From a virus (taxonomy: Duplodnaviria; Heunggongvirae; Uroviricota; Caudoviricetes), in the IMG/VR virus record IMGVR_UViG_3300031784_000011, positions 1 to 64,000 of that record: a stretch of 64,000 bases of DNA; one strand, written 5' to 3'. Numbering within the stretch: position 1 is the first letter of the stretch; each line of letters starts with the position of its first letter. Below the pieces are notes generated by a model, which did not search any database, was not told the DNA's origin, and saw nothing but the letters and a program-made list of their open reading frames with translations. The position numbers and the translations under genes are program-made. Below, one piece after another: positions 2,097 through 55,447 of the stretch.

Positions 2097-2127
2097 CAAA
2101 TATAATTAATAATTTTTAAAATGTCAA
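2097..2127 (-). promoter_or_regulatory. host sigma-A-type promoter candidate (TTG-N20-TATATTTG), leaderless
   Basis: Minus-strand TTG at 2125-2127, a 20-nt spacer, TATATTTG at 2097-2104, then aatc, then ATG of 1607..2092. Confidence 0.5.
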
Positions 2128-7307: not shown

Positions 7308-7338
7308 CAAATATATTACTAGTATTTGAGATATCCAA
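7308..7338 (-). promoter_or_regulatory. host sigma-A-type promoter candidate (TTG-N20-TATATTTG)
   Basis: Minus-strand TTG at 7336-7338, a 20-nt spacer, TATATTTG at 7308-7315, 17 nt before the ATG of 6823..7290. Confidence 0.5.
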
Positions 7339-7375: not shown

Positions 7376-7399
7376 TTACAAATTTAGATTTGATTGTAA

Positions 7400-13424: not shown

Positions 13425-13442
13425 TTTAAAATTAATATGGGC

Positions 13443-13473
13443 CAAATATATGAAATAATTTTGGATATACCAA
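13443..13473 (-). promoter_or_regulatory. host sigma-A-type promoter candidate (TTG-N20-TATATTTG)
   Basis: Minus-strand TTG at 13471-13473, a 20-nt spacer, TATATTTG at 13443-13450. Confidence 0.5.
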
Positions 13474-13480
13474 AATATTG

Positions 13481-13510: not shown

Positions 13511-13523
13511 ATTTGGTTTTAAT

Positions 13524-19187: not shown

Positions 19188-19218
19188 CAAATATAGAAAA
19201 GAAAAATTTGATTTCCAA
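19188..19218 (-). promoter_or_regulatory. host sigma-A-type promoter candidate (TTG-N20-TATATTTG)
   Basis: Minus-strand TTG at 19216-19218, a 20-nt spacer, TATATTTG at 19188-19195. Confidence 0.5.
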
Positions 19219-29549: not shown

Positions 29550-29795
29550 TCAATTATGATTCCCGTCAGAATCATCAGTACGTAAATTATTGTCCTTATA
29601 TTCATATGTTTTTAAGTATTGAATTGTTTTATATAACGTGTGTGTTTCCCTCATGTTAAAAACACCGGAATAATGACCATGTTGTAAACCCATTTCAATA
29701 ATTTGAATTGCCATCTGTGGGTTTAAATTATCTAAAACCATTTCCAATTCATCATTATTGTCAAAATTTAATTGGTCGTTGAATAGTCCTTTCAT
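29550..29795 (-). CDS. hypothetical protein
   Basis: 81 aa. A TATATTTT element sits 6 nt upstream of the ATG. Confidence 0.45.
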   Translation of the reverse strand: MKGLFNDQLNFDNNDELEMVLDNLNPQMAIQIIEMGLQHGHYSGVFNMRETHTLYKTIQYLKTYEYKDNNLRTDDSDGNHN

Positions 29796-29819
29796 GATAT
29801 TAAAATATAGTAAACAAAT

Positions 29820-30215
29820 ATGATAAAGTCAAATATTTATAAAAATATGTCAGTGATTATTAATAATACAAAGTTCCCTGCGGAATACCTATCCGAACCT
29901 GAAGAAATTAGTCAAGGTATGATGGGTAGAGATAATTTAAATGGTTGTATGGTTTTTAATATGGGTGGTGTTGGTCACCATTCTTTTTGGATGAAAAACT
30001 GTTTAATACCTTTGGATATTGTTTTTGTATTGAAAAATAGAATCAGTAAAATACATAGAAATTGTGAACCCGCTGGTCAAAATGAATTGAACCCAAAAAG
30101 ATACACCGGCATAGGTGACCATGTTATTGAGTTTCCCGCCGGTGTTACTGATAAATTTAAAGAAGGTGACCGAGTTAATATGTATTTGGGAACACCTATG
30201 AATCCTGTCCGTTAA
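29820..30215 (+). CDS. DUF192-family protein
   Basis: GMMGRDNL...GMVF...FWMKNCLIPLDIVF matches the COG1430/DUF192 core. Confidence 0.55.
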   Translation: MIKSNIYKNMSVIINNTKFPAEYLSEPEEISQGMMGRDNLNGCMVFNMGGVGHHSFWMKNCLIPLDIVFVLKNRISKIHRNCEPAGQNELNPKRYTGIGDHVIEFPAGVTDKFKEGDRVNMYLGTPMNPVR

Positions 30216-31072: not shown

Positions 31073-31153
31073 ATTGTTTTCTATTTATTATTATTACAAA
31101 AGATAACGAATAAAAAACAATAAACCAAAATATTTATAAAAAAACTTAAAATC

Positions 31154-33899: not shown

Positions 33900-33900
33900 A

Positions 33901-34623: not shown

Positions 34624-35441
34624 GGAAAATACTTATATCGGATTTTACCATTAAAGAAGTACCTCACGGTGGTTCTGAATGGGTGAATCAAGTTTTAATT
34701 GATAGATTTAATCTTGAGTTTGAATATTCAAACCAAGTCAAGTCATTTGATTACAACGCCCTGTATATTATATCAAATATTTCTTTGATGAACCCAAACT
34801 TGGTTAATCAAATACAAAATTTGAACTACGTCATTATTGAAAACGATTATAAAATATGTGCAAGTAGACACCCATGGAGATATACCGACAACATAATTCC
34901 GATTGAGGAAAGAACCAACTATTCTCTTTACCGGAATGCAAAAGCGGTATTTGTTCAAACAACCGACCACATGAACGTTTATCTTAAAAACGATGTTGTT
35001 GCTAATTTTATAAATCTGAATAGTTCGATATGGTCAAATGAGGACTTAGAATTATTGAGGAATTTAAATAAATCCAACAATGTTAAAAACGACAAATATT
35101 CTGTTTACTATACAAATAATTGGATAAAGAACACCCAAGGTAGTCTGAAGTATTGTTCTGAAAATAAATTACCGGTCCATATTCTTAAAGAATCTAAAGA
35201 CAGAGTTGAATTTTTAAGTAATATGGCCAAATGTAAAGGTATTGTGTTTTTCCCGATAGCAAGAGAAACTTTTTGTAGACTGGTTGTTGAGGCAAAATGT
35301 TTAGGTTTGGAAGTAATAACGACACAAAATTATGGTGCAAGTTTAGAAGAATGGTTTAATAGGTTATCAGGTGATGAATTAATTGATTTCTTAGAAACTA
35401 ACACTTTAAAAAATTTAGAAATCATTTCAACTTATATATGA
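34620..35441 (+). CDS. GT-B (group 1) glycosyltransferase candidate
   Basis: N-terminal VPHGGSEWV and C-terminal ARETFCRLVVEAKCLGLEVITTQNYGASLEEW match the GT4 conserved loops. Confidence 0.45.
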   Translation: MRKILISDFTIKEVPHGGSEWVNQVLIDRFNLEFEYSNQVKSFDYNALYIISNISLMNPNLVNQIQNLNYVIIENDYKICASRHPWRYTDNIIPIEERTNYSLYRNAKAVFVQTTDHMNVYLKNDVVANFINLNSSIWSNEDLELLRNLNKSNNVKNDKYSVYYTNNWIKNTQGSLKYCSENKLPVHILKESKDRVEFLSNMAKCKGIVFFPIARETFCRLVVEAKCLGLEVITTQNYGASLEEWFNRLSGDELIDFLETNTLKNLEIISTYI

Positions 35442-36430
35442 TATTATTTTGTTACGGCACAAGACCTGAGTATATTAAAATAAAAAAATTAATAGAAATG
35501 TGTGGGGAAAGTATTCCCCATAAAATTTTATATGTTACCCAACACAAAGATATTGTATTGGGTGATTTTGATTATAAATTATCCATTGATGATACGTGTG
35601 AAAATAGATTGGATAGTATTATGTCATCCGTATTTTTAAATTTTAAAAAAGAATTTTTGGAAGGGGTTACACATATACTTATCCAAGGGGACACCGCAAC
35701 CGCTCTTTCATTATCCCTAATAGGATTACACCATAAAAAAGAAGTGATTCATTTAGAAGCGGGATTACGGACATATGACTACAATCACCCTTACCCCGAA
35801 GAAATGTATCGGCAGTTAATTAGTAGAATTTCAAACTATAATCTTTGCCCAACAGAAAGTAACAAGATGAACTTAGAAAATGAAAAAGTTCAGGGTAAAA
35901 ATTTTGTAGTTGGCAATACCGTATTAGATAATCTTAATAAAGAAAATATTACATACGAAAATAAAGTCTTAATCACTTTACATAGAAGAGAGAATCATGA
36001 GATGATGTCGGAGTGGTTTGATGTTATCAATCGATTAGCAAAGAATAATCCTGAATTAAAATTCATTCTTCCAATACACCCAAACCCAAACGTCATAAAA
36101 CACAAACATATATTGACACATGTTGATGTTATTGAACCATTAACCCATGATAAATTTATTGAGGAATTCAAATCCTGTAAATTACTAATTTCAGATAGTG
36201 GGGGTGTTCAAGAAGAGGCGTCGTTCCTAAATAAGAAAGTTATTGTATGTAGAGAAAAAACTGAGAGACCTGAGTCCTTGGGTAAAACGTCTTTTATATG
36301 TAAAAAACCCATTGACTTAGAAGGTATTTTTTACGATATTATTAACGATTTCCAAACAGAATATGATTGTCCTTTTGGTGATGGTAATTCTTGTGAAAGA
36401 ATCATTGAAATATTTAGAAAAATTGTATGA
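35438..36430 (+). CDS. UDP-N-acetylglucosamine 2-epimerase (non-hydrolysing, WecB-like)
   Basis: HLEAGLRTYDYNHPYPEEMYRQLISRISNYNLCPTE and DSGGVQEEA match the epimerase_2 family. Confidence 0.75.
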   Translation: MILFCYGTRPEYIKIKKLIEMCGESIPHKILYVTQHKDIVLGDFDYKLSIDDTCENRLDSIMSSVFLNFKKEFLEGVTHILIQGDTATALSLSLIGLHHKKEVIHLEAGLRTYDYNHPYPEEMYRQLISRISNYNLCPTESNKMNLENEKVQGKNFVVGNTVLDNLNKENITYENKVLITLHRRENHEMMSEWFDVINRLAKNNPELKFILPIHPNPNVIKHKHILTHVDVIEPLTHDKFIEEFKSCKLLISDSGGVQEEASFLNKKVIVCREKTERPESLGKTSFICKKPIDLEGIFYDIINDFQTEYDCPFGDGNSCERIIEIFRKIV

Positions 36431-37155
36431 GTATAACGGTAATATTAAATGGGTATAAAAGACCACATGTTCTCCAAAAACAATTGGAATCAATTAGAAA
36501 TCAAAGTGTCCAACCCGAATCAATTTTATTTTGGCAAAATTCTGGTTCTCAATTTGATGAGGGACTAACCAAAGATTTAATTCACGCATCTTGTAATAGT
36601 AATTTAGGTGTGTGGGCAAGATTTGCATTTGCTTTAAATGCCAACACAGAATATATTTGTGTTTTTGATGATGACACAATACCGGGTAAACTATGGTTAG
36701 AAAACTGTCTAAACACCATGAAAATTCAAGAAGGTTTATTAGGAACTATCGGTGTAAAATTTCACACAAAAAACTCTTATTGGCCAGCAACAAGAGTCGG
36801 TTGGGACCAACCTAACGAAGAAATTGAAAAGGTCGACATTGTTGGTCACTCGTGGTTCTTTAAAAGAGAATGGTTATCGATATTTTGGAGAGAATTACCT
36901 GAAATCAATCAGAGTAAATTAGTTGGTGAGGATATGCACTTTTCATATACATTACAGAAATACGCAAATATCGGAACTTACGTTCCTCCCCATCCTAAAG
37001 AAAATAGAGAAATGTGGGGTAGTATACCAGAATATGCATGGGAACATGGAACTGATTCCAACGCAATTTCCGTAAATCATTCAAATATGAATTTAATGGG
37101 TGAAGTTTACCGTGGGTATGTAAATAAAGGATTTAAGACAATATTAAATGATTGA
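36427..37155 (+). CDS. family-2 glycosyltransferase
   Basis: ITVILNGYKRPHVLQKQLESIRNQS and FDDDTIPG (DxD). Confidence 0.5.
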   Translation: MSITVILNGYKRPHVLQKQLESIRNQSVQPESILFWQNSGSQFDEGLTKDLIHASCNSNLGVWARFAFALNANTEYICVFDDDTIPGKLWLENCLNTMKIQEGLLGTIGVKFHTKNSYWPATRVGWDQPNEEIEKVDIVGHSWFFKREWLSIFWRELPEINQSKLVGEDMHFSYTLQKYANIGTYVPPHPKENREMWGSIPEYAWEHGTDSNAISVNHSNMNLMGEVYRGYVNKGFKTILND

Positions 37156-37867
37156 AAAGTATATTGAAGATTTTAATTCGTTTTGGGAAAAGATAGATAG
37201 TCGAACTAACTTTTCTTTTGTTAGATATGCCGATGGTGAAGTGATGTTAATGAATAATTCACCGATAGAAAAGAATACACAAGCGTATCAAAACGATAAA
37301 TGGTTTTCGAGTGGGGGACAAACCAAATTAGGTGTGGATTTAAATGAATGTATAGGGTTGAACGACCCAAATTTTTATTTTGCAATATCCTCCAAAACTG
37401 ATAGTATTAGAGACTATAATTTTTTATATGATAGAATACAAAATAAATCAAACATTACATTTGCTAACCTATGGATTAACGCAAATTACAAAGAAAATAT
37501 ATCAAGAATAAGAAATATAAATCGAGATGTTGTTTTAATTTGTAATGAAAATTGTGATTTAAAAAACATACCATTTAGTGTATCAGAATTTGTACCGTTC
37601 CCTAATGATTGTGTAAACTATTGGGAAGAACATAGAGATTCGTTTTTAGAAAAAATATACAATGTTTCTTCAAAATATAAAGATACTTTATTTATCGTAT
37701 GTTGTGGACCAACATCTGCTGTTATCATAAAACATATGTTTACAAATAATAGTAATAACACTTATATTGATTTTGGTTCCGCATTAGATGTATTCATACA
37801 TAATAAAATAACTAGACCATACATGTATGAAGGGTCACAATATCATAATCACATATCAAAATTTTAA
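37148..37867 (+). CDS. GT-D type (DUF1792-like) glycosyltransferase candidate
   Basis: FVRYADGEV, CCGPTSAVII and IDFGSALD echo the GT-D/DUF1792 motifs. Confidence 0.35.
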   Translation: MIEKYIEDFNSFWEKIDSRTNFSFVRYADGEVMLMNNSPIEKNTQAYQNDKWFSSGGQTKLGVDLNECIGLNDPNFYFAISSKTDSIRDYNFLYDRIQNKSNITFANLWINANYKENISRIRNINRDVVLICNENCDLKNIPFSVSEFVPFPNDCVNYWEEHRDSFLEKIYNVSSKYKDTLFIVCCGPTSAVIIKHMFTNNSNNTYIDFGSALDVFIHNKITRPYMYEGSQYHNHISKF

Positions 37868-37873
37868 TTCAGT

Positions 37874-38464
37874 ATGAATAATGATTTTTGTGTCATAGTA
37901 CAAGGACCTTCAGACTACGTTAAAGAATTAAAAAACGCTTGGACTGGTTATGATTTGATTTGGTCAACATGGCAAGGTGAAGAATCAAAATACGATACTA
38001 ATGATGTTGTCTTATTCAACAGTATTCCACACGATAGGGGTGTACAAAATATAGCACTACAAAAAATATCAACTTTGAATGGAATAATGAAAGCCAAAGA
38101 AATAGGTTACAACAGAGTCCTTAAATGGAGAAGTGATTTACTACCATCTAATGCAAATAGATTAGTTTCCACATTTAAAAAAGAGTGTGTAAATTTTTTG
38201 ACTTGGCATAATGAAGGAAAATATTTTGTTGATTATTTTGTGGAGGGTGAAATAGATACGGTGTTTGATATTTGGAATGTATCTACCATACACGATGAGT
38301 ATTCGGAAAAAATAATCACGGAAAATATAATATCACTTAACTATAAAAATATAAACTTTATGGGTGGCGAATTAAGTAATGATAATGAAATTTTTTGGTT
38401 AAAACGAAATATTAATTTGTCCACATATAAAGACGCACCATGTTATAGTATGGTGGTGATTTAA
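37874..38464 (+). CDS. hypothetical protein (possibly WavE-like LPS biosynthesis)
   Basis: N-terminal CVIVQGPSDY. Confidence 0.3.
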   Translation: MNNDFCVIVQGPSDYVKELKNAWTGYDLIWSTWQGEESKYDTNDVVLFNSIPHDRGVQNIALQKISTLNGIMKAKEIGYNRVLKWRSDLLPSNANRLVSTFKKECVNFLTWHNEGKYFVDYFVEGEIDTVFDIWNVSTIHDEYSEKIITENIISLNYKNINFMGGELSNDNEIFWLKRNINLSTYKDAPCYSMVVI

Positions 38465-38475
38465 AAATTATAAAA

Positions 38476-39210
38476 ATGATAGATAATTCAAAATTTATTG
38501 ACGACGCATTTACTCAAGATGAATTAAATAGGGGTGCCTTTACCGATTTGAATGGTAGATGTCCATTATGGACAACAAAAATGATTAATGTTATAAAAGA
38601 TAAAATTGACTTTAATGATGTCAACACAATATTAGATATTGGGTCAAGAGATGGTTGCCAAAGTTTAGAGTTAAATAGATGGTTTCCACATGCTAAAATA
38701 TATGCGTTTGAACCAGTAAAAGAAAACTACGAATTTACAGTTAAGAACGTTGAGAAAATTAATAACATAAAAGTTTACCAATACGCAATAAACAATTACA
38801 ACGGTAAAACTAAATTTTACGAAGTTTATAATGGAAATGTGGGTGCCAGTTCTTTATTACAGACAACAAACCACTGGCGTTCATCTCAGTGGGCCCAAAA
38901 GGAAACTGAGGTTGACTGTATTGTTCTTAGTGATTGGTTAAAAGAAAATGATATTAAAAGTGTTGATTTGATTTGGATGGATGTTCAAGGTGCAGAAAAT
39001 ATCGTATTAGACTCTCTAAAAGAATATTTAAATGATGTAAAAATAATAACCACCGAAGTAGGGTTACAGGAATTATATCGTGGTTCTACAAGTAAATCTG
39101 AACTAGATGAAAAACTAAATAGGTTTATACCAATAGACGAGTCGCCAGAATCTTCAAACACAGAAATGGATGTGGTTTATATCAACAAAAATTTAACACC
39201 TTATGGATAA
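38476..39210 (+). CDS. FkbM-family SAM-dependent methyltransferase
   Basis: ILDIGSRDGCQSLEL...AFEP and the overall FkbM pattern. Confidence 0.55.
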   Translation: MIDNSKFIDDAFTQDELNRGAFTDLNGRCPLWTTKMINVIKDKIDFNDVNTILDIGSRDGCQSLELNRWFPHAKIYAFEPVKENYEFTVKNVEKINNIKVYQYAINNYNGKTKFYEVYNGNVGASSLLQTTNHWRSSQWAQKETEVDCIVLSDWLKENDIKSVDLIWMDVQGAENIVLDSLKEYLNDVKIITTEVGLQELYRGSTSKSELDEKLNRFIPIDESPESSNTEMDVVYINKNLTPYG

Positions 39211-39904
39211 TAAAATTTGTTACGTTACTTATACAAATTCAAAATGTTCAGATATTTTGGATATGTTCTTGTTAGAACAAAAAAAGTACACAAACTTACC
39301 GATGTATTTTATTACAGATGTAATGATACCCGAGCAAATTTGTTTTTTATATGAAAATCAAGAACCTTATTATGAATCATGGTTAAAGTGTTTATCTTCA
39401 ATACCATATGACTATTTTATATACTTACAAGAAGACTTTATTCTTTATAACAATGTCAGTCATGATAAAATTTTTAATTACCTCGATTTTTTACATGATA
39501 ACCAAGAATATTCGTTCATTAGATTGTTAAAATCGGGGTCTGTTAAAGATAAAAAAATTTATGAGACCTTATATGAAATAGAATCCGACAATAAAGATAT
39601 ATTTTCTATGCAACCAACTATTTGGAAAAAAGATGATTACATTAAAATCATGAAAGGTACCAAAAATAATATGTGGTTAGAGAATGAAACATATAGAAAT
39701 TTTATGATAGAAAACAACATCAAAGGTTTATATCATTACGATGGTGAAAACAAAAGGGGGTTGAATCATTTTGATAGTTCTGTTTATCCATATATAGCAA
39801 CGGCTTTAGTTAGAGGTAAATGGAATTTATCTGAATACCCTAATGAACTCTCTCCATTAATAAATGAATATGAAATAAACGTAAATGTTCGGGGGATACA
39901 TTAA
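39203..39904 (+). CDS. hypothetical protein
   Basis: 233-aa ORF inside the sugar island. Confidence 0.4.
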   Translation: MDNKICYVTYTNSKCSDILDMFLLEQKKYTNLPMYFITDVMIPEQICFLYENQEPYYESWLKCLSSIPYDYFIYLQEDFILYNNVSHDKIFNYLDFLHDNQEYSFIRLLKSGSVKDKKIYETLYEIESDNKDIFSMQPTIWKKDDYIKIMKGTKNNMWLENETYRNFMIENNIKGLYHYDGENKRGLNHFDSSVYPYIATALVRGKWNLSEYPNELSPLINEYEINVNVRGIH

Positions 39905-39906
39905 TA

Positions 39907-40581
39907 ATGAAAATTGTTCTATCTTTTTACACCAACAATAAATTTAGTAACACCGTTCAAAAATTAATCGGATATTATAATTCACGTGGTTTCAATGATA
40001 TCCGAGGATTTAAATCTGAAGATGTTAAGAAAGGTATTTTTTATGAAAACCATAAAGAAATATTAGATTGTGAAACGGGTGATGGATTTTGGTTGTGGAA
40101 ACCAAAAATTATTTTAGATATTTTGAATGAATTAGAAGATGGGGATGCATTAATTTATACCGATGCCGGTGATTTAGTTGATGTTGATTATAATACGATT
40201 GCAAATTATTTGAAAGATAATGATTATTATTTTACAAATTGGAATGGAAATCGTTGGCCTCAAAAAATATGTACAAAAAGAGACTGTTTTATCTTGATGG
40301 ATTGTGATGAAGAAAAGTTTCATGAAACACCACAGATGGAAGCAGGATTTATCATCATTAAAAAAACCAAACAAATGATGGAATTTGTTCACGATTATTT
40401 TAAGTATTGTAGTATTAAACAGATAGTTGACAATGAACCAAATCAAATTGGTGAGAATTTTCCAAATTGGCAATTCCATAGAAATGACCAAAGTATATTA
40501 ACTAACTTGGTTGTGAAACATAATTTAAAATTTGATTATTGTCTCGATTATAGAATAAAATACAACGTATATATACCATGA
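39907..40581 (+). CDS. hypothetical protein (possible DxD glycosyltransferase)
   Basis: GFWLWKPKIIL...IYTDAGD. Confidence 0.35.
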   Translation: MKIVLSFYTNNKFSNTVQKLIGYYNSRGFNDIRGFKSEDVKKGIFYENHKEILDCETGDGFWLWKPKIILDILNELEDGDALIYTDAGDLVDVDYNTIANYLKDNDYYFTNWNGNRWPQKICTKRDCFILMDCDEEKFHETPQMEAGFIIIKKTKQMMEFVHDYFKYCSIKQIVDNEPNQIGENFPNWQFHRNDQSILTNLVVKHNLKFDYCLDYRIKYNVYIP

Positions 40582-41339
40582 AATTTATTGCATTAAATTA
40601 TAATTATGACTTAAATAAAATGTCCCAAATCGGTCGGAAATGGGCGTTTGATGTCTACAAAAATAAAGAGTTTATATCTGATTATTCATCAGCATCTTAT
40701 GCTTCATTTATTGATAAGAATAGAAAAAGTATTTTACATCTTTATACTGATGATGTTGAGGGTATGAAAGAAAAAATGAACAAGTATAACATTGACCAAG
40801 ACAGAATTATTTATATTGATTACACGGAACAACTTACCAAATACAATGAAAGTCTTAATTATAGTTTTACAGTTTTAAATGATTTTATTAATTATGCAAA
40901 ATCAGAAACTGAGTACACTGTAAAAATCGATAATGATTTATTTTTTCATTCGGAATTACCACAAATTGATGATAATTCTATTATGGTTTGGAAGTATGAA
41001 AGAATCGTTAGGAATGGTGACCCGAGATGGGGTGAAATAAAAATATGTAAACAGGTTACAAATGATTTAGATTTTAAAATTTATAATTTAGGTATTTTTG
41101 GGTTGCCCGCGGATTACAATATTCACCAAGCAAAAAAAATTATGGAAGATATGATATCGGTAGACATTTCAGATGTGACTGATACAGACTCGAAGATTTA
41201 TCATTGTTGTGAGCAAACGGCAAATAATTGGATTTTTCACAAAGAAAATTATAACGTGATTGAAACGTATAATTATGTTGACCACCTGTTTGATAGAAAA
41301 GGTGATTGTATAGAATTATCAAAATATCTTTTAAAATGA
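40578..41339 (+). CDS. hypothetical protein
   Basis: 253-aa ORF inside the sugar island. Confidence 0.4.
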   Translation: MKFIALNYNYDLNKMSQIGRKWAFDVYKNKEFISDYSSASYASFIDKNRKSILHLYTDDVEGMKEKMNKYNIDQDRIIYIDYTEQLTKYNESLNYSFTVLNDFINYAKSETEYTVKIDNDLFFHSELPQIDDNSIMVWKYERIVRNGDPRWGEIKICKQVTNDLDFKIYNLGIFGLPADYNIHQAKKIMEDMISVDISDVTDTDSKIYHCCEQTANNWIFHKENYNVIETYNYVDHLFDRKGDCIELSKYLLK

Positions 41340-42103
41340 AAACATCAGTAGTATTGACAATTCACAACAAGGAATTCTTAATGAACCAAGTGGTGAGTAA
41401 CTTGGTAAATAATTTATCAGAACTGAATGACCAGATTGTAATAGTTTTTGATGGTTGTACAGATAATAGTGAAGGTATTGTTCGTGACAATTTAAAGAGA
41501 GTTAGTAATAAAAAAATTGATTACCTGTATGCCGACAATGTTTTTGAAACCAAAGCAAATAATATTGGTCTAAAGTCTGTTATAAATGATTATGTGGTCT
41601 TAATCCAAGATGATATGGTTGTCACAGAAAAAGATTTTGATAAGAGGATGTTGGAACCGTTCATAAAATATAGTGATGTGTTCGCTGTAACATCTTTTGT
41701 TGCTCACAATAACATCTATAATGAACAAACAAAACAAATAAATTACATCGATATTGCACATAAAGATAACTCATCAAGAGATATTTTTTATGCTAGAGAA
41801 TATGGTAACAGAGGTCCACTAATGTACAACTATAATGACGTGGTCAAATTAAATTTTTTAGACGAATATTTTTCACCCCAAAATTATGATGATATGGATA
41901 TGTCCATGAGAGCATTCAAAGAACTCGGAAAAGTGTCAGGTTTATATACGATAGATTATATTTCCGAACCTGGATGGGGGACCACTAGACAAAAAAATCA
42001 ATCATTACATAATAATTTAGTTTACGTAAACGCAGCAAAAATACTTGAAAAACACAGGGATTTATTGTATAATAAAGACAAATATAAAGAGGATAGAGAA
42101 TGA
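41336..42103 (+). CDS. family-2 glycosyltransferase
   Basis: Start taken at MKTSVV. VVLTIHNKEF...VIVFDGCTDNSE...LIQDDMV. Confidence 0.5.
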   Translation: MKTSVVLTIHNKEFLMNQVVSNLVNNLSELNDQIVIVFDGCTDNSEGIVRDNLKRVSNKKIDYLYADNVFETKANNIGLKSVINDYVVLIQDDMVVTEKDFDKRMLEPFIKYSDVFAVTSFVAHNNIYNEQTKQINYIDIAHKDNSSRDIFYAREYGNRGPLMYNYNDVVKLNFLDEYFSPQNYDDMDMSMRAFKELGKVSGLYTIDYISEPGWGTTRQKNQSLHNNLVYVNAAKILEKHRDLLYNKDKYKEDRE

Positions 42104-42717
42104 ATAATATAGAGCTAAAGACATTTATGATTAATCATAATGTTAATATCCATGGTGTGATTCACGTTGGTGCACATTTTGGTCAAGAAGATGAAGTTTA
42201 TAAGGAATTGGGTATTTCAAACAGAATATACTTTGAACCTCTATCGTCTAATTTTGAGACCTTAAAAGAAAAAATAGATGATGACGCAATTTTAGTTAAA
42301 CTGGCGTTAGGTAATGAAAAGAGAAAAGTTTCTATGTTTGTAGAATCCTTTAATAAAGGTATGTCATCCTCAATATTAGAACCGAAATTACATTCTGTTC
42401 AATTTCCTCATATCGTTTTTGATTCTGTAGAAGAAGTTGAAATGGATAGATTGGATGATTTAAATTACGATTTTTCAAAATACAACATGATGAATATCGA
42501 TGTTCAAGGTTTTGAATTAGAGGTTCTCAAAGGTTCCGTGAATACATTAATCAACATTGACTACGTTATTGTAGAAATAAACAGAGCCGAATTATATAAA
42601 GGTTGTCCACACTTTGATGAAATAAACAATTGGATGACACATCATGGGTTTACCTGTGTTGAACAATTTTGGTGGGGTAATAATTTTGGTGAGGGATTTT
42701 TTAAAAAAATAAAATGA
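42100..42717 (+). CDS. FkbM-family methyltransferase
   Basis: IHVGAHFGQEDEVY...YFEP. Confidence 0.5.
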   Translation: MNNIELKTFMINHNVNIHGVIHVGAHFGQEDEVYKELGISNRIYFEPLSSNFETLKEKIDDDAILVKLALGNEKRKVSMFVESFNKGMSSSILEPKLHSVQFPHIVFDSVEEVEMDRLDDLNYDFSKYNMMNIDVQGFELEVLKGSVNTLINIDYVIVEINRAELYKGCPHFDEINNWMTHHGFTCVEQFWWGNNFGEGFFKKIK

Positions 42718-43775
42718 AACGAGTATTAGTATTGGGTGGTGGCGGATTTATTGGTGGTCACCTAGCAAAAAGATTAAAAAATGAAGGAAACTACGTAAGA
42801 GTAGTTGATATAAAAAGACACGAATATTTTGATGAGAAAGACTTTTGTGACGAATTCTTAATATATGACCTTACGGACCCAAAAAACGTATCATCAGTAA
42901 TGAGATTAGAAGAATTAAATGGTACGATATTACCGTTTAATTATTACAAACAACCATATTCAACTGAGGTCCCATTTGATGAGGTTTATCAATTAGCTGC
43001 CGATATGGGTGGTGCTGGTTACATCTTCACTGGTGAAAATGACGCGAATGTTATGCACAATTCTGCAATGATAAATTTAAATGTTGTAAATGAATCAGTG
43101 AAGACAAAAGTTAAGAAGATTTTTTATTCATCATCGGCATGTATGTATCCTGAACACAATCAATTAGACCCTAACAACCCAAATTGTGAAGAATCATCAG
43201 CATATCCCGCGAATCCTGATTCAGAATATGGTTGGGAAAAACTTTTTTCGGAAAGGTTGTACTTGGCTTTTCACAGAAATCACGGTTTGGATGTTCGAAT
43301 TGCTAGATTTCATAACATATTTGGTCCATATGGTACGTGGAAAGGTGGTAAAGAAAAAGCACCAGCAGCTATGTGTAGAAAAGTTGCCGAAATGTTAGAC
43401 GGTGGAGAAATTGAAGTTTGGGGTGATGGTCAACAGACTCGTTCATTCTTATATGTGGATGAATGTGTTGAAGCGGTTTTAAGACTAATGAGACAAGACT
43501 CTTTTTTGGGTCCTGTAAACATTGGTTCTGAAGAGAAAGTAACAATTAATGATTTGGCTCAAATGGCTATAGATATTTCAGGTAAAGAAATTTATATCAG
43601 AAATATTGGTGGGGAAGAATTTAAACAGAAGTATGGATATAAATGTCCTGTTGGTGTGAGGGGAAGAAATTCAGACAATAAATTATACCACGAAAAAATA
43701 GGTTGGGTTGTTAGTGAACCTCTGTTCTATGGAATGGAAAAAACCTATAAATGGATTAATAGTTTAGTTAAATAA
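42714..43775 (+). CDS. GDP-mannose 3,5-epimerase-like NAD-dependent epimerase/dehydratase
   Basis: Rossmann GGGGFIGGHL. SEYGWEKLFSE (YxxxK). RFHNIFGPYGTWKGGKEKAPAAMCRK closely matches the plant/bacterial GME signature. Confidence 0.7.
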   Translation: MKRVLVLGGGGFIGGHLAKRLKNEGNYVRVVDIKRHEYFDEKDFCDEFLIYDLTDPKNVSSVMRLEELNGTILPFNYYKQPYSTEVPFDEVYQLAADMGGAGYIFTGENDANVMHNSAMINLNVVNESVKTKVKKIFYSSSACMYPEHNQLDPNNPNCEESSAYPANPDSEYGWEKLFSERLYLAFHRNHGLDVRIARFHNIFGPYGTWKGGKEKAPAAMCRKVAEMLDGGEIEVWGDGQQTRSFLYVDECVEAVLRLMRQDSFLGPVNIGSEEKVTINDLAQMAIDISGKEIYIRNIGGEEFKQKYGYKCPVGVRGRNSDNKLYHEKIGWVVSEPLFYGMEKTYKWINSLVK

Positions 43776-45466: not shown

Positions 45467-45757
45467 CTATTTGTAATAAAATTTTAAATCCGTTGATTCA
45501 TAAAAGTAAATTCCATTAAATTCACTATCTTCTACTTTTTTAAAAATCATCAAAGATACTCTTAGAAATTCAAGTTGTTCCTGTGTTAATTGAGGTTCAC
45601 CTGTTTTTCTAAAATTATTTTCAGCGACTTTTAAAATACTATTATAAAACTCATCTTCGTTCAAGTTTGATAAAAAATATTTTCTCGCTTCCTCATTACT
45701 TTCAAAGTAATTTTTAATTGTTTGCAAATATATCAAACTTTCAGGAGAAAAATCCAT
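45467..45757 (-). CDS. hypothetical protein
   Basis: 96-aa ORF. Confidence 0.45.
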   Translation of the reverse strand: MDFSPESLIYLQTIKNYFESNEEARKYFLSNLNEDEFYNSILKVAENNFRKTGEPQLTQEQLEFLRVSLMIFKKVEDSEFNGIYFYESTDLKFYYK

Positions 45758-46650: not shown

Positions 46651-46940
46651 TTATAATTTTATATTTTGCGTTATTAGTCCTCTAACTATAAAAATATAAG
46701 AAACTTTTTTCAAAAATGGAAATCAGTGCGCACTTTTATTTTACCGGCTGAGATTTGGTCTTTCCACCTTTCTGTCTTTTTCTTCTCGCGGCGCAGTGGG
46801 CTTTTTGAGAAAAACCTTTTGGATTGCTACAATCTATGGTCTTTTTATATTTCATTGACCATTTTTCAACCACCATGTCTTCCAACAATTCAATCAATTT
46901 CATATTGATAAATACTTATTTATTACTTATTTTTTGTATT

Positions 46941-48506: not shown

Positions 48507-48689
48507 TTATATTATTAAAAATGTTATTATGTAAGAAACCGCAAGATAAAACAAAACAGATTCTATTTTGGTCAACTTTAATATTGAGGGTTGTTCTGAG
48601 AAGAATTTTATCAAAAATTCAACACAGAACCTTAGTACGTAAATGGTACTCAATACCATCAAAAAAATAAAGATATAATTAATCATCAT
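48507..48689 (-). CDS. small membrane protein
   Basis: 60 aa with two TM helices. Confidence 0.35.
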   Translation of the reverse strand: MMINYIFIFLMVLSTIYVLRFCVEFLIKFFSEQPSILKLTKIESVLFYLAVSYIITFLII

Positions 48690-48861
48690 GTTTTTTTATT
48701 TCTTGTAATAGTTCTTTTCTATAAAGAGGAATTAACTCTTTTATTTCTTGAGCATATTTTCTAGCTCGAATAGATGCACTTCTATTACCCTTTTCGAATA
48801 CCTTGGTGGTATCAACAGACATTTTTTCCACCAAGTCTTTGATTTGTTTAAGTGTGTCCAT
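48679..48861 (-). CDS. small basic hypothetical protein
   Basis: 60-aa ORF. Confidence 0.35.
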   Translation of the reverse strand: MDTLKQIKDLVEKMSVDTTKVFEKGNRSASIRARKYAQEIKELIPLYRKELLQEIKKHDD

Positions 48862-52725: not shown

Positions 52726-53835
52726 CTAATTTTTTTTTTCTTCCTCAATGGGAAGTTGTTCATCTTGTATTGGTTCCTCAACAATCGGTTCAGGTGTTTC
52801 AATTATTTCCTCAACAATCGGTTCAGGTGTAACAATTGGTTCTTCAATTACTATCGGTTGTTCTTCAACTATTACAGGTTGTTCTTCAACAATTGGTTCT
52901 TCAATTACTATCGGTTGTTCTTCAACTATTACAGGTTGTTCTTCAACAATTGGTTCAGGAGTAATAGTTGTTTCTTCAATTACTATCGGTTGTTCTTCAA
53001 CAATTGGTTCAGGTGCAATAGTTGGTTCAGGTGTGACAATTGGTTCTTCAACTATTACAGGTTGTTCTTCAACAATTGGTTCAGGAGTAATAGTTGTTTC
53101 TTTAACAACCACCGGTTCTTCTTTAATTAAATGGTCCTCAATTAAAAAAACATCTGATGAGTCATTATCCTCTTCTTCCTCAGGAGTTTCAACATCTTTT
53201 GGTTGGGGGGTTTTGTTAAGTAATTTTTCTAAAATATCTAAATCTTCTTGAGAGATTCTAACTCGAGAGACTTCACCAACAATGTCTTTAGCATCTACCA
53301 CCGGTGTTTCTTCACCAACGGGTTCAGGAGCGTCTTTTACCACTGGTTGTTCAACCTCTACAGTATTTTTCTCACTCTGAGTAAACTTAACTAACATATG
53401 TAGAAAAGAAAGTGAAATGATTGGTAACATACCTCCAGCGAAAAACGCTAAAAATCTTTTGTGACCAATCATGTCTGTAGGGTCAACACCAATATATTCT
53501 AAAAGTGGTGAAACTAACTCAACCCAAGAAATAAATGCTTGACTCGTAATATCAATATATGAATAGGCGAAATAAATATTACCAATAAATTGAATGAGGG
53601 TTACAATACCAAATGGGAAATATACTTTTCTACCCATATCAGCTGATATTGCAGCCAACGCAGATAATGCGGCAATTTCGATACCTATTGATAAATAGAT
53701 AGCCCAACTAATTGGGTTTGAAATTCCGTACCATTTAGTTACGTGTGATATTGAAACCAACGCAACAGTTATAATTGGTATTAAAAACGCAGATACTATT
53801 AATGTTTTATAATTTTTATTAATCCAATTTTTCAT
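52726..53835 (-). CDS. polytopic membrane protein with long C-terminal Pro/Glu/Val/Ile-rich repeat domain
   Basis: Four to five TM helices in the first 150 aa, then about 200 aa of (E)PIVEEQPVIVEE-type repeats. Confidence 0.55.
   Translation of the reverse strand: MKNWINKNYKTLIVSAFLIPIITVALVSISHVTKWYGISNPISWAIYLSIGIEIAALSALAAISADMGRKVYFPFGIVTLIQFIGNIYFAYSYIDITSQAFISWVELVSPLLEYIGVDPTDMIGHKRFLAFFAGGMLPIISLSFLHMLVKFTQSEKNTVEVEQPVVKDAPEPVGEETPVVDAKDIVGEVSRVRISQEDLDILEKLLNKTPQPKDVETPEEEEDNDSSDVFLIEDHLIKEEPVVVKETTITPEPIVEEQPVIVEEPIVTPEPTIAPEPIVEEQPIVIEETTITPEPIVEEQPVIVEEQPIVIEEPIVEEQPVIVEEQPIVIEEPIVTPEPIVEEIIETPEPIVEEPIQDEQLPIEEEKKN
52745..53110. repeat. coding tandem repeats (about 57-bp units)
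   Basis: The unit ggttgttcttcaactattacaggttgttcttcaacaattggttcttcaattactatc recurs. It encodes the PIVEEQPVIVEE repeats of gene 52726..53835. Confidence 0.6.
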
Positions 53836-54128: not shown

Positions 54129-54941
54129 TTATAAATAGTTTAATAATCCATAACTGTCGTTACGAAGTTTCTTTAGTGCTTTATCACGTAGTTGTCTAAT
54201 ACGTTCTTTAGTGCATCCGAATTCATCACCCAAGTCTTCTAAATTCATTTCAATACCGTTCAACCCATAAGACTTTTCAATAATGACCTTTTCTCTATCG
54301 TCAAGGATTGAAAGCATTTGAGAAACTCTTTTTTTAATTTCTTCAGACGTATTTAAAATGTCTTCAGGGTTATCAGCGTTGACATTAATGATGGTATCGA
54401 TTAATTGGTCTCCCTCTTCATTTATTTCATCATTCAAGTTTACACAATGAGGTAGTACTATTTCTGCCCCATTATCTTCATAATTGATAAAGAAAGGGTC
54501 ATCAACATTTAACTGTTCATTTTTCTTTCTTTTTTGATTTTCCTGAATAATGTTTGACGGCAGTCTTATCATCCTTGAATTCTCGTTTAGAGAAGCCATA
54601 ATAGATTGTTTAATCCACCAAACAGCATATGAAATAAATTTGTAACCACTGTTAGGGTCAAATCTTTCGGCGGCTCGTATGAGACCGATATTACCTTCGG
54701 ATATTAAATCAATTAAATCCATACCATTGTTTTGATATGATTTAGCGACGGTGATTACAAAACGTAGATTACCCACTACGAGTTCGTTTAACAAATCGAC
54801 TCTTTCCTTCTTAGGTAGGTCTTTATTTTTTAAGAGTTCGAAGACTTCATCCTGTCTTTGGTGAGTAATTACCTTAATCTTTCGGATGTCTTTGATGTAG
54901 TTCTGAATTTCTTCAGTGTTGATTAGTAATGTTTTGGCCAT
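54129..54941 (-). CDS. sigma-70 family RNA polymerase sigma factor (regions 2-4)
   Basis: Region 2.2-2.4 DLISEGNIGLIRAAERFDPNSGYKFISYAVWWIKQSI. Region 4.2 LEDLGDEFGCTKERIRQLRDKALKKLR. Confidence 0.8.
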   Translation of the reverse strand: MAKTLLINTEEIQNYIKDIRKIKVITHQRQDEVFELLKNKDLPKKERVDLLNELVVGNLRFVITVAKSYQNNGMDLIDLISEGNIGLIRAAERFDPNSGYKFISYAVWWIKQSIMASLNENSRMIRLPSNIIQENQKRKKNEQLNVDDPFFINYEDNGAEIVLPHCVNLNDEINEEGDQLIDTIINVNADNPEDILNTSEEIKKRVSQMLSILDDREKVIIEKSYGLNGIEMNLEDLGDEFGCTKERIRQLRDKALKKLRNDSYGLLNYL

Positions 54942-54985
54942 GAATGTTCGGTTTGTGGTTCATGGGTAAAAATATGTAAAAAAAA

Positions 54986-55447
54986 TCAATTTTGGAAGCC
55001 ATCCAAGAATTTTTTTTCGTCAGGAGTCAAACTGTCTATCCCCTCCTGTTCAATTTTCTCTAAAATATTATCAAGGTCCATTGTTTCGTTAGGGTTCTCG
55101 GTGTTTTCTTTTTTATTATATTCTAACCTTAATGAACTATATTCTTCACTTGGCTTAAACATAAAGTCCTTCATCTGTATAGGTAAATTGGCACTATATA
55201 TACTTTCTCTTTCGAAGAGGAAGTAAAATTTCACATCCTCCATAGAAATAATATTGTGAAGTTCTTCAGAGAGCTCTTTTCTATTTGATTCGGATTCAAA
55301 TATAACTATTATACTTTTAGACGTATCTTCAATAACAAACCTAACCTTGGCAATTTTTGGACTAACTCCAAGAACTTCCAAACAAAAAAATTCAATGTCT
55401 TCGTGGTCTTCGAAATTCGCGAATAAAAATAAAAGATATGTCTTCAT
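54986..55447 (-). CDS. acidic hypothetical protein
   Basis: 153-aa ORF. Confidence 0.45.
   Translation of the reverse strand: MKTYLLFLFANFEDHEDIEFFCLEVLGVSPKIAKVRFVIEDTSKSIIVIFESESNRKELSEELHNIISMEDVKFYFLFERESIYSANLPIQMKDFMFKPSEEYSSLRLEYNKKENTENPNETMDLDNILEKIEQEGIDSLTPDEKKFLDGFQN

What the first reader, a model, noticed from the sequence alone, without database searches (positions are those of the whole stretch)
54129..54941. Phage-encoded full sigma-70-family factor
The 270-aa product has canonical regions 2.1-2.4 (promoter -10 recognition and melting) and 4.2 (HTH for the -35). This makes it a genuine sigma-70 homologue rather than a divergent gp55-like late factor. Combined with host-type promoters on a subset of genes, this suggests a two-tier programme in which the phage swaps in its own sigma to redirect host RNAP.
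Basis: partly seen in the sequence, partly recalled or inferred. Interest (0 to 1): 0.55.

Follow-up and report, generated by a model that had tools for sequence, protein, structure and literature searches.

The report
Jumbo-phage sigma factor, Bacteroidota type
A large freshwater phage that infects Bacteroidota carries its own well-conserved copy of the host-type RNA polymerase sigma factor, trimmed of one domain; this kind of gene is already known in giant phages, so it is a solid but fairly ordinary finding.

Summary
The ORF is real: 54129-54941, minus strand, 270 aa. It scores Pfam Sigma70_r2 and Sigma70_r4 above threshold. All DNA-melting and -35-type contact residues are invariant across 117 relatives, and dN/dS is about 0.02. 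It is not a pseudo-sigma. It is also not a host gene. The same SbcC-ClpP-DUF6576-sigma neighbourhood recurs on viral contigs of 287-371 kb, down to 45% identity, and no cellular genome holds a copy above 39%.

It is not "full". Region 1.1 is absent, region 1.2 is degenerate, and region 3 is cut by about 15 aa and goes undetected, whereas Bacteroidota sigmaA controls score all four Pfam regions. Diagnostic residues place it with the short Bacteroidota sigmaA type (9 of 12 positions; generic sigma-70, 0).

The "host-type" promoters are real in one specific form. TTG-N20-TAT[AC]TTT[GT] occurs 11 times against about 1 expected, and this is the Bacteroidota -33/-7 consensus.

No second promoter motif appears in this window, which has no structural genes. 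The two-tier sigma-swap model is therefore plausible but untested. RpoD-like sigmas in jumbo phages are already described, and the probable lineage ("moraphages") lists a sigma factor as a core gene.

The parts
54129..54941 (-). Phage sigma-70-family gene, 270 aa (ATG at 54941, stop at 54129-54131)
   Evidence: ORF list; Pfam r2+r4; PHROG_351; PDB SigA/RpoD/RpoS alignments; dN/dS about 0.02
54864..54917 (-). Degenerate region 1.2 (aa 9-26, EEIQNYIKDIRKIKVIT; Y15 invariant)
   Evidence: Aligns to region 1.2 of SigA in HMMER/BLASTP. Pfam Sigma70_r1_2 is not detected, but it is detected in sigmaA controls
54576..54779 (-). Regions 2.1-2.4 (aa 55-122): core binding (DLISEGNIGL), -10/-7 melting and recognition (YKFISYAVWWIKQSIMAS)
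   Evidence: Pfam Sigma70_r2, 63 bits; residue table; AF2 pLDDT 70-83
54345..54557 (-). Region 3 remnant (aa 129-199): a 3.0-like helix (129-143), a variable low-confidence segment, and a conserved 3.2-finger-like stretch (LPHCVNLNDEINEEGDQLID). Region 3.1 is deleted (about 15 aa shorter than sigmaA/sigma70)
   Evidence: No Pfam r3; spacing 118 vs 133 aa; AF2 aa 143-186 pLDDT <50, coil; family invariants
54159..54314 (-). Regions 4.1-4.2 (aa 210-261), HTH with recognition helix TKERIRQLRDKALKKLR
   Evidence: Pfam Sigma70_r4, 44.7 bits; K245/E246/R247/R249/Q250 invariant in the family
54967..54998 (-). Weak sigmaA-type promoter-like element upstream of the sigma gene: CTTC-N20-TATTTTTA
   Evidence: Sequence. 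The box TAT[TCA]TTT[AT], with CTTC/TTTG/TTTC exactly 20 nt upstream, is conserved in relatives at 94%, 70% and 69% identity. Function is inferred
7308..7338 (-). Example of a strong Bacteroidota-type promoter, TTTGG-N19-TATATTTG, 17 nt upstream of the ATG of ORF 6823-7290, following a hairpin/T-run terminator
13443..13473 (-). Same promoter class, 18 nt upstream of ORF 12918-13424
19188..19218 (-). Same promoter class, 20 nt upstream of ORF 19003-19167
2097..2127 (-). Same promoter class (TTGACA...-TATATTTG), only 4 nt from the ATG of ORF 1607-2092; a leaderless mRNA is predicted
   Evidence: the -7 box occupies -12..-5 according to PMC9723704
5412..5442 (-). Same promoter class (TATATTTT variant), 33 nt upstream of the aminotransferase-like ORF 4269-5378
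29802..29832 (-). Same promoter class, 6 nt upstream of ORF 29550-29795
31098..31128 (-). Same promoter class (TATCTTTT variant), 31 nt upstream of DNA methylase ORF 30218-31066

Best explanation
The gene encodes a functional sigma-70-family initiation factor. It is an old, vertically inherited core gene of a clade of freshwater jumbo phages (about 290-370 kb). In the 64 kb window and the flanks examined, no RNA polymerase subunit gene turned up, and the host is predicted to be Bacteroidota.

The protein descends from the short Bacteroidota sigmaA type, which has no region 1.1. It keeps region 2 (core binding, DNA melting, -7/-10 recognition), a 3.0-like helix, the 3.2 finger-like linker and region 4 (the -33/-35 HTH). 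It has lost the folded region 3.1 sub-domain and has a degenerate region 1.2.

Proposed mechanism (inferred):
1. Host sigmaA-RNAP first transcribes phage genes from strong host-consensus promoters (TTTG-N20-TATATTTG). It also transcribes the sigma gene, either from its own weaker version of that promoter or by read-through.
2. The phage sigma then competes for host core RNAP.
3. It directs the core enzyme to phage promoters with a sigmaA-like -33/-7 architecture, most probably a later temporal class lying outside this window.

Shown here: gene, domains, residue conservation, purifying selection, phage residency, host-type promoters. Inferred: binding to host core, promoter class, timing.
For: Domains and contact residues.

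Purifying selection: dN 0.04 with dS saturated against a relative at 94% aa identity.

Phage core-gene status: identical neighbourhood (primase-exonuclease-SbcD-SbcC-ClpP-DUF6576-sigma-95 aa-membrane protein-amidase...Hc1) on contigs of 287, 319 and 371 kb at 69%, 70% and 45% identity; 37 IMG/VR viral contigs; no cellular copy above 39% identity.

Bacteroidota sigmaA descent: 9 of 12 diagnostic positions follow sigmaA and 0 follow generic sigma70; the signatures FISYAVWW / LRFV / RLPxN are shared; a named Taibaiella RpoD/SigA is 36% identical, E=5e-57; a rough NJ tree agrees.

Host-type promoters: 11 observed vs about 1 expected, and positioned upstream of genes. They match the published Bacteroidetes sigmaA consensus TAnnTTTG at -12..-5 (PMC9723704).

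No phage RNAP subunit or second sigma in the window.

Precedent: all group 2 jumbo phages encode sigma factors, some 'close to cellular RpoD', and are proposed to recruit host catalytic subunits (PMC7824862). The probable lineage lists a sigma as a core gene and has no RNAP (PMC12619734).

Family-invariant substitutions at specificity positions differ from both sigmaA and sigma70 (T440M, R441A, R423S, A444N, R584K). These allow an altered promoter preference.
Against: No distinct second promoter motif was found in 45 upstream regions, nor upstream of the sigma gene in relatives. Nothing here shows a separate regulon.

The window holds no structural or late genes, and attempts to reach them failed.

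The DNA-contact residues are so close to sigmaA that identical specificity is equally possible.

The AF2 model of region 3 is low confidence and built from a shallow alignment (42 sequences at 67% identity or more).

No biochemical or expression data exist.
Confidence: 0.5

Rival explanations
1. SigmaA surrogate. The phage sigma has essentially the same promoter specificity as host sigmaA. It exists to keep or boost transcription of the phage's sigmaA-type promoters when host sigmaA is limiting, inactivated or sequestered, for example by a phage anti-sigma or by host shut-off. It would then be a replacement, not a temporal switch.
For: Only one promoter family is detectable in the window and in relatives. 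Region 4.2 recognition residues (K/R584, E585, R586, R588, Q589) and region 2.3/2.4 residues are shared with sigmaA. There is precedent for a huge phage that encodes its own sigma70 while CRISPR-targeting the host sigma70 gene (PMC7162821). A phage Hc1 histone-like protein could silence host DNA, which would make shared specificity harmless (inference).
Against: Family-invariant differences from sigmaA sit at the -12-contact positions 440/441 and at 423, 444, 458, 581-584. No anti-sigma was recognised next to the gene or elsewhere in the window. Characterised phage sigmas (SPO1 gp28/gp34, T4 gp55; my own knowledge) have distinct specificities.
Confidence: 0.33
2. Non-initiating competitor or decoy. 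The protein binds host core RNAP or a host regulator to shut off host transcription, without directing promoter-specific initiation itself.
For: Loss of the region 3 domain and a degenerate region 1.2 could in principle impair open-complex formation.
Against: Every residue needed for DNA melting and for -10/-35-type base contacts is invariant across 117 relatives. So is the 3.2 finger-like segment. A pure decoy would not need them.
Confidence: 0.05
3. Host sigma gene on a chimeric or misassembled contig, or a very recent capture from the host.
For: JGI pipelines label relatives 'RNA polymerase primary sigma factor'. The closest cellular type is Bacteroidota sigmaA.
Against: The same gene sits in the same phage neighbourhood on many independent contigs from different samples, down to 45% identity. 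GC content is uniform across the window. The best cellular hits are only 36-44% identical. The domain loss is shared by the whole phage family and absent from sigmaA.
Confidence: 0.01

Closest known systems
Bacteroidota primary sigma factor sigmaA (sigmaAB; Vingadassalom et al. 2005, cited in PMC9723704), e.g. RpoD/SigA of Taibaiella sp. MCF8448226.1
   Same: Short, with no region 1.1. Shares the lineage signatures LRFV, KFISYAVWW and RLPxN (9 of 12 diagnostic positions). Regions 2 and 4.2 have the same contact residues. The phage genome is full of the promoters this sigma reads (TTTG-N19-21-TAnnTTTG).
   Different: Only 36-44% identical. The phage protein lacks the MRQLKIT N-terminus. It has no detectable Pfam region 3 (about 15 aa deleted) and a sub-threshold region 1.2. 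It differs at positions 423, 440, 441, 444, 458 and 581-584. It is encoded by a phage, not by a cell.
RpoD-like ('more complete') sigma factors of group 2 jumbo phages (Iyer et al. 2021, PMC7824862), e.g. Lak megaphages, cyanophage S-CBS3, Microcystis phage MaAM05, Vibrio phage VAP7
   Same: A sigma-70-family factor with regions 2 and 4, encoded by a large T4-related phage that has no RNAP of its own. The presumed role is recruiting host core RNAP.
   Different: Sequence identity is only 28-36%. This family is of the Bacteroidota sigmaA type and has lost region 3.
Core sigma factor of 'moraphages' (OG0000024 / VOG00090 'sigma-F'; Perez-Hernandez et al. 2025, PMC12619734)
   Same: Freshwater jumbo phages of 200-307 kb with predicted Flavobacteriia hosts. 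They carry Hc1 (PF07432), several glycosyltransferases, primase, exonuclease subunit 2, glutaredoxin and no RNAP. All of these features are seen in this window or its relatives. This is probably the same gene family.
   Different: The paper gives only an annotation label, with no domain, residue or promoter analysis.
Bacillus phage SPO1 gp28 and gp33/34, and T4 gp55 (temporal-class phage sigmas; my own knowledge)
   Same: Phage proteins that replace the host sigma on host core RNAP to switch promoter class. This is the working model for the present gene.
   Different: Those factors are highly divergent or minimal, and their distinct promoters have been shown experimentally. This protein is a close structural copy of the host-type primary sigma, and no distinct promoter has been found.
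Huge phage that encodes its own sigma70 and CRISPR-targets the host sigma70 gene (Al-Shayeb et al. 2020, PMC7162821)
   Same: A phage-encoded sigma70 proposed to substitute for a disabled host sigma.
   Different: No CRISPR array or anti-sigma was found in this window.

Membership tests
Sigma-70 family (Pfam clan; TIGR02937 superfamily) | Region 2 domain above the curated threshold | tested here: met
   PF04542, 63.0 bits vs cutoff 24; TIGR02937, 112.4 bits vs 42.9
Sigma-70 family (Pfam clan; TIGR02937 superfamily) | Region 4 HTH above the curated threshold | tested here: met
   PF04545, 44.7 bits vs cutoff 24.1
Sigma-70 family (Pfam clan; TIGR02937 superfamily) | Aromatic/basic residues for -10 melting and recognition (E. 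coli Y425, F427, Y430, W433, W434, Q437), and the region 2.2 core-binding motif DLIxEGNxGL | tested here: met
   Y100, F102, Y105, W108, W109, Q112 and DLISEGNIGL; 100% conserved in 117 relatives, except position 425 which is Y/F
Sigma-70 family (Pfam clan; TIGR02937 superfamily) | Region 4.2 recognition-helix residues (E. coli R584, E585, R586, R588, Q589) | tested here: met
   K245, E246, R247, R249, Q250, all invariant
Sigma-70 family (Pfam clan; TIGR02937 superfamily) | Binds core RNAP and confers promoter-specific initiation | not testable with these tools
   Requires biochemistry
Group 1/2 sigma (RpoD/SigA/RpoS equivalogs) | Score above the NCBIfam equivalog cutoff | tested here: not met
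   Best hits: RpoS TIGR02394, 169 bits vs 378.7; RpoD_Cterm, 162 vs 354
Group 1/2 sigma (RpoD/SigA/RpoS equivalogs) | Folded region 3 domain (Pfam Sigma70_r3) | tested here: not met
   No hit at E<1 in the window protein or in 4 relatives, while sigmaA controls score 47-59 bits. The region is about 15 aa shorter. AF2 predicts coil with pLDDT <50 for aa 143-186
Group 1/2 sigma (RpoD/SigA/RpoS equivalogs) | Region 1.2 (Pfam Sigma70_r1_2) | tested here: not met
   Not detected, or 13.9 bits vs 22 in P0140. A degenerate homologous stretch does align
Group 1 sigma | Region 1.1 | tested here: not met
   The protein starts 8 residues before region 1.2. Bacteroidota sigmaA also lacks region 1.1 (literature cited)
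Bacteroidota sigmaA lineage (descent, not orthology) | Lineage-diagnostic residues that differ from generic sigma-70 | tested here: met
   9 of 12 follow sigmaA, 0 follow generic, 3 follow neither. About 140 of the top 150 representatives carry FISYAVWW-type signatures
Bacteroidota sigmaA lineage (orthologue / housekeeping sigma) | MRQLKIT-type N-terminus, about 287 aa, all four Pfam regions, encoded in a cellular genome | tested here: not met
T4 gp55-type minimal late sigma | Region-2-only minimal factor matching gp55 families, with no region 4 | tested here: not met
   The PHROG hits are RpoD-like families (phrog_351 and others) and a region 4 is present. That gp55 lacks region 4 is my own knowledge
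ECF / group 4 sigma | Sigma2-linker-sigma4 only, with Sigma70_r4_2-type region 4 and no regions 1.2/3.0/3.2 | tested here: inconclusive
   The Pfam domain content (r2+r4 only) resembles group 4. However, the best full-length matches are RpoD/RpoS/SigA, r4 is the PF04545 type, and remnants of regions 1.2, 3.0 and 3.2 align to group 1
Moraphage lineage (Perez-Hernandez 2025) | Clustering with the 25 SPIRE genomes by TerL/MCP/PolB phylogeny | not testable with these tools
   Their genomes are not available here. Shared traits only: freshwater origin, 287-371 kb contigs, Hc1, glycosyltransferases, core sigma, predicted Bacteroidota host

The most novel reading that the evidence does not exclude
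A whole clade of Bacteroidota jumbo phages carries a sigmaA-derived sigma that has shed the sigma3 domain yet keeps sigmaA's promoter-contact residues. The near-invariant TTTG(G)-N20-TATATTTG promoters scattered through the genome would then be this sigma's own regulon, or be shared with host sigmaA. On this reading the phage runs its programme with a streamlined, regulation-proof replacement of the housekeeping sigma rather than with a sigma of new specificity. A phage Hc1 histone-like protein might silence the host chromosome. This would be a natural 'minimal primary sigma', showing that region 3.1 is dispensable for -33/-7 promoter use.
Probability: 0.25. Interest if true: 0.55.

Novelty: new member of a known kind. 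Interest (0 to 1): 0.3.

Why it matters
Phage-encoded RpoD-like sigmas are an accepted feature of jumbo phages that lack their own RNA polymerase, so the existence of this gene is not surprising.

What this analysis adds is modest but concrete:
- This family is a derivative of the unusual Bacteroidota sigmaA.
- The whole lineage has lost the region 3 domain.
- The phage genome is punctuated by textbook Bacteroidota -33/-7 promoters, some of them apparently leaderless.

Transcription in Bacteroidota is poorly studied and has few genetic tools. A compact, naturally trimmed sigmaA relative with its matching strong promoters could be a useful reagent. It could also serve as a test case for which parts of a primary sigma are needed for promoter use. 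If the phage sigma turns out to have its own specificity, it would define the temporal switch of an abundant group of freshwater jumbo phages.

Tried and rejected
1. Nucleotide search of 10 kb against GenBank phages found no match. No isolated close relative exists; the best phage protein hits are 28-36% identical.
2. Pseudo-sigma: rejected, because the contact residues are invariant and dN/dS is about 0.02.
3. Host gene or chimeric contig: rejected.
4. Generic motif counts are not enriched: TATATTTG 12 vs 7.6; TAnnTTTG 96 vs 105; TTTG-N19-21-TAnnTTTG 5 vs 3.3; E. coli-type TTGACA/TATAAT 87 vs 86.9. Only the specific N20/TAT[AC]TTT[GT] form and its placement are significant.
5. A possible second promoter class with TTG 12 nt upstream of the box (sigma gene, 46691, 60180). 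I dropped it. In two cases the TTG overlaps the upstream gene's TGA stop codon. The alignment of relatives instead shows a weak -33 at N20.
6. K-mer search for a second upstream motif: nothing beyond TATATTT(G), TTTGGA and T-runs.
7. Second sigma or lone sigma4 paralogue in the window: none in six-frame hmmsearch with two profiles.
8. Anti-sigma or co-factor among the conserved neighbours: only DUF6576, Amidase_2 and unannotated membrane/coiled-coil proteins.
9. Walking to structural genes to look for late promoters: 10 kb extensions on both sides showed only small unknown, NUDIX and glycosyltransferase genes.
10. tRNA and Rfam scans found nothing.
11. The GTDB scan is pattern-seeded. Its hit list (Melioribacteraceae, Ignavibacteria, Verrucomicrobia and others at 31-39%) is not a ranking of the nearest homologues. 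I used it only to show that no close cellular copy exists.
12. The NJ tree is star-like and has no support values. I used it only as consistency evidence.
Full report
**1. The observation**

An ATG-initiated ORF of 270 aa occupies 54129..54941 on the minus strand.
- Pfam detects Sigma70_r2 (63.0 bits, aa 55-122) and Sigma70_r4 (44.7 bits, aa 210-261), both well above their gathering scores, and nothing else of relevance.
- NCBIfam's best models are RpoS/RpoD types at 150-170 bits, all far below their equivalog cutoffs. Only the superfamily model TIGR02937 passes.
- PHROGs assigns phrog_351, 'RNA polymerase sigma factor' (1.7e-52).
- Against PDB sequences, the protein aligns from aa 10 to 263 with SigA/RpoD/RpoS chains, best 1.5e-37.

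So the coordinates, the length and the claim of canonical regions 2 and 4.2 are correct.

**2. Is it degenerate?**

I aligned the protein with 117 family members, 37 Bacteroidota sigmaA-type sequences and E. coli sigma70.
- The melting and -10-contact residues Y425/F427/Y430/W433/W434/Q437, together with R448/R451, are present and essentially invariant in the family.
- So are the region 4.2 residues E585/R586/R588/Q589. R584 is an invariant K (invariant columns).
- The region 2.2 core-binding motif reads DLISEGNIGL.
- Against a relative at 94% amino-acid identity, dN is 0.04 while dS is saturated, giving dN/dS of about 0.02.

**3. Is it phage-borne?**

The window has uniform GC of about 31% and is 94% coding. 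It encodes:
- a Dda/UvrD-type helicase, ThyX, SbcC/SbcD, an exonuclease, a primase, a ClpP-like protease and two DNA methylases;
- auxiliary genes: aminotransferase, GlnA-like, Band 7, HAD phosphatases, glucosaminidase, thioredoxin, glutaredoxin, and the Hc1 histone-H1-like protein.

The sigma protein belongs to a large metagenomic family. At least 120 clusters (clustered at 90% identity) are 67-98% identical to it, all 263-287 aa long.

The neighbourhood primase-exonuclease-SbcD-...-SbcC-ClpP-...-DUF6576-sigma-95 aa-about 360 aa-Amidase_2-...-Hc1-...-Dam methylase-AAA is conserved at several distances:
- at 94% identity;
- at 70% identity on a 319 kb contig;
- at 69% identity on a 287 kb contig;
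- at 45% identity on a 371 kb contig.

At 55% identity the sigma gene follows SbcC directly. Thirty-seven IMG/VR viral contigs carry it at 41-94% identity. A pattern-seeded scan of 185,579 GTDB species genomes found nothing above 39% identity. The 'host gene on a chimeric contig' refutation also fails. The gene is an old core gene of a jumbo-phage clade.

**4. What kind of sigma?**

An exhaustive phmmer search of 1.84 billion representatives returned two groups below the family itself. One is many 245-280 aa proteins. The other is a band of 284-292 aa proteins beginning MRQLKIT.
- One such cluster contains NCBI-named RpoD/SigA of Taibaiella sp. and of a Chitinophagaceae bacterium. BLASTP identity to the former is 36%, E=5e-57.
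- About 140 of the top 150 representatives carry FISYAVWW and R[LI]PxN, where generic sigma70 has FSTYATWW and RIPVH.
- There are 12 positions where Bacteroidota sigmaA and generic sigma70 consensus residues differ, each at least 75% conserved. The phage family follows sigmaA at 9, generic at 0 and neither at 3.
- A rough NJ tree is consistent. The family sits inside the FISYAVWW radiation, among other short metagenomic sigmas rather than within one sigmaA lineage (no support values).

The helicase's best isolated-phage hits are Bacteroides, Chryseobacterium and Flavobacterium phages. This agrees with a Bacteroidota host.

**5. Not a 'full' sigma**

Two Bacteroidota sigmaA controls score all four Pfam regions above threshold (r1_2, r2, r3, r4). 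The window protein and four relatives down to 45% identity score only r2 and r4.

The distance from RLPxN (end of region 2.4) to KERIRQ (the 4.2 recognition helix) is 133 aa in E. coli sigma70 and in sigmaA. It is 118 aa (range 112-123) in all 118 family members measured. The alignment shows that the segment equivalent to 'GREPTPEELAE...' (region 3.1) is missing. A 3.0-like helix and a conserved 3.2-finger-like stretch, LP(H/Y)CVxLxxEINE(E/D)GDQLID, remain.

AlphaFold2 with a 42-sequence family alignment gave mean pLDDT 66.8.
- Sigma2 (aa 9-118), a helix at 129-143 and sigma4 (aa 192-269) are modelled at pLDDT 70-84.
- Residues 143-186 come out as coil below pLDDT 50. This is weak evidence on its own, because the alignment is shallow.
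- Foldseek's best PDB matches are SigA and sigmaS chains at probability 1.0.

The three 'neither' positions include the equivalents of E. coli T440 and R441, which are -12 contacts by established knowledge. Here they are M and A, against L and Q in sigmaA. Further family-invariant differences from sigmaA lie at positions 423 (S), 444 (N), 458 (Q) and 581-584 (G, C, T, K).

**6. Promoters**

The loose Bacteroidetes consensus is not enriched at all in this AT-rich DNA. E. coli-type promoters are at chance, 87 vs 86.9.

The specific form TTG-N20-TAT[AC]TTT[GT] is different. It occurs 11 times against 0.98 expected, and 0 of 300 dinucleotide shuffles reach 11. Seven of the 11 copies lie 4-33 nt upstream of a same-strand ATG, although only 6.6% of the window is intergenic.

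The sites are at 2097, 5412, 7308, 13443, 19188, 29802 and 31098, with a spacing-19 variant at 22510. Several directly follow hairpin/T-run terminators. The motif matches the published Bacteroidetes sigmaA promoter, TAnnTTTG at -12..-5 with an upstream TTG/TTTG (PMC9723704). At 2097 and 29802 the box ends only 4-6 nt from the ATG, which predicts leaderless transcripts. A distant relative (L008) shows the same promoter type. 'Host-type promoters' is therefore right, and the host type is Bacteroidota.

**7. Is there a second tier?**

All strong sites lie in 0-31 kb. The 44-64 kb replication module that contains the sigma gene has only weaker TATATTTT-type boxes.

Upstream of the sigma gene the sequence is CTTC-N20-TATTTTTA. 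The box TAT[TCA]TTT[AT] and a weak -33 (CTTC, TTTG or TTTC) at exactly N20 are conserved in relatives at 94%, 70% and 69% identity. This is a weaker member of the same promoter family, not a new motif.

K-mer enrichment across 45 upstream regions finds only TATATTT(G) (13 regions, about 11-fold), TTTGGA and T-runs. No second sigma-like ORF exists in the window. No neighbour has a recognisable anti-sigma domain. The two-tier hypothesis therefore cannot be tested here.

**8. Mechanism**

Shown: a constrained sigma-70-family protein of Bacteroidota sigmaA descent, resident in a jumbo-phage lineage whose genome uses Bacteroidota-type promoters. No RNAP subunit gene was seen in the window.

Inferred:
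1. Host sigmaA-RNAP transcribes early cassettes from the strong consensus promoters. It also transcribes the sigma gene, from its weak promoter or by read-through.
2. The phage sigma then competes for core RNAP.
3. It directs the core enzyme to phage promoters.

I give about 0.5 to a temporal switch to a related but distinct promoter class outside the window. Precedents are SPO1 gp28/34 and T4 gp55 (my own knowledge), the substitutions at positions 440/441/584, and the statement that group 2 jumbo phages use their sigmas to recruit host catalytic subunits (PMC7824862).

I give about 0.33 to a sigmaA surrogate with the same specificity. In its favour: only one promoter family is seen, the contact residues are shared, and there is a precedent of a huge phage that encodes a sigma70 while targeting the host's (PMC7162821). 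A decoy role (0.05) and a host-gene artefact (0.01) are unlikely.

**9. Comparison with the known**

Iyer et al. 2021 already describe 'more complete' RpoD-like sigmas in all group 2 jumbo phages, including Bacteroidetes-infecting ones.

Perez-Hernandez et al. 2025 describe 'moraphages':
- 25 mostly freshwater jumbo-phage genomes of 200-307 kb with predicted Flavobacteriia hosts;
- no RNAP, Hc1 (PF07432) and several core glycosyltransferases;
- core primase, exonuclease subunit 2 and glutaredoxin;
- a core sigma factor (OG0000024; VOG00090 'sigma-F' in 24 genomes).

All of these traits are present in this window or its relatives. The window very probably belongs to that lineage or a sister of it. 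Their paper gives only an annotation label for the sigma.

**10. Verdict**

This is a real, functional-looking phage sigma, correctly spotted. It is not 'full', and the sigma-swap programme is untested. It is a new member of a known kind.

The incremental points are the Bacteroidota sigmaA ancestry, the lineage-wide loss of region 3, and the clean set of Bacteroidota-type promoters, partly leaderless.

Interest is about 0.3.

Noticed in passing
window 31666-43775 (+ strand): A 12 kb block of 15 co-oriented, tightly packed genes lies on the opposite strand from nearly everything else, with reversed GC skew. It encodes a glycan-biosynthesis island: several family-2 and GT-D-like glycosyltransferases, a UDP-GlcNAc 2-epimerase, an FkbM methyltransferase and an NAD-dependent epimerase/dehydratase. 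The target (virion, DNA or host surface) is unknown. The moraphage paper reports four core glycosyltransferase groups.
   Followed up: partly
window 48679-48861 (-): A 60-aa histone H1-like protein Hc1 (PF07432, 3e-15), conserved in all relatives examined, including the 371 kb contig. Its upstream region contains an inverted repeat, TTTTCCGTATACTATATATAAAAACGGAAAA. It could compact host or phage DNA.
   Followed up: partly
window 2092-2104 and 29795-29809 (-): Two strong promoters place the -7 box only 4 and 6 nt from the ATG. Given the published -12..-5 position of the box, this predicts leaderless mRNAs.
   Followed up: no
window 5379-5478, 7291-7399, 10961-11021, 13425-13523 (-): Repeated 'GC-rich hairpin + T-run, then TTTGG-N19-TATATTTG' units separate short gene cassettes, for example AATCCCCGAAAGGGGATTTTTTTTT and GGAGGGATTTCGGTCCCTCTTTTTTTT. 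They look like terminator-promoter modules of independently transcribed cassettes.
   Followed up: no
window 52726-53835 (-): A 369-aa protein two genes downstream of the sigma has N-terminal transmembrane segments and a long acidic P/E/V/I-rich tandem-repeat tail (EPIVEEQPVIVEE...). It has no family hit. Its position is conserved but its length varies among relatives, from 304 to 386 aa.
   Followed up: no
window 54986-55447 (-): The gene immediately upstream of the sigma carries a C-terminal DUF6576 motif (33.4 bits). It stays adjacent to the sigma gene in most relatives examined, including the 45%-identity contig; one 69%-identity relative has an unannotated 209-aa gene there and one 55%-identity relative has SbcC directly upstream. 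A functional link with the sigma, such as a partner or regulator, is possible but untested.
   Followed up: partly
L006 19543-20070 (relative, 287 kb contig): A NusG/KOW-like gene (PF02357) sits between the Dam methylase and the AAA gene in this relative. It is absent at the same place in the window, where a 96-aa ORF lies at 45467-45757.
   Followed up: no
window 24846-26171 (-): The ThyX-type thymidylate synthase ORF is 441 aa. Its match spans 351 residues for about 248 profile positions, which suggests an insertion of about 100 aa or a fused extra domain.
   Followed up: no
window 28109-29233 and 4269-5378 (-): Auxiliary metabolic genes: a glutamine-synthetase-like protein (Gln-synt_N + Gln-synt_C) and a class I/II aminotransferase, the latter behind a strong host-type promoter.
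   Followed up: no
window 46651-46835: A 185-nt divergent intergenic region between the Dam methylase and a + strand ORF is unusually GC-rich for this genome (GTGCGCAC..., CTCGCGGCGCAGTGGGC followed by a T-run). There is no Rfam hit.
   Followed up: no
P0155: One representative hit is a 7,852-aa protein with a sigma-like segment at residues 3102-3349 (33% identity, FISYAVWW type). It is either a giant fusion protein or a gene-calling artefact.
   Followed up: no
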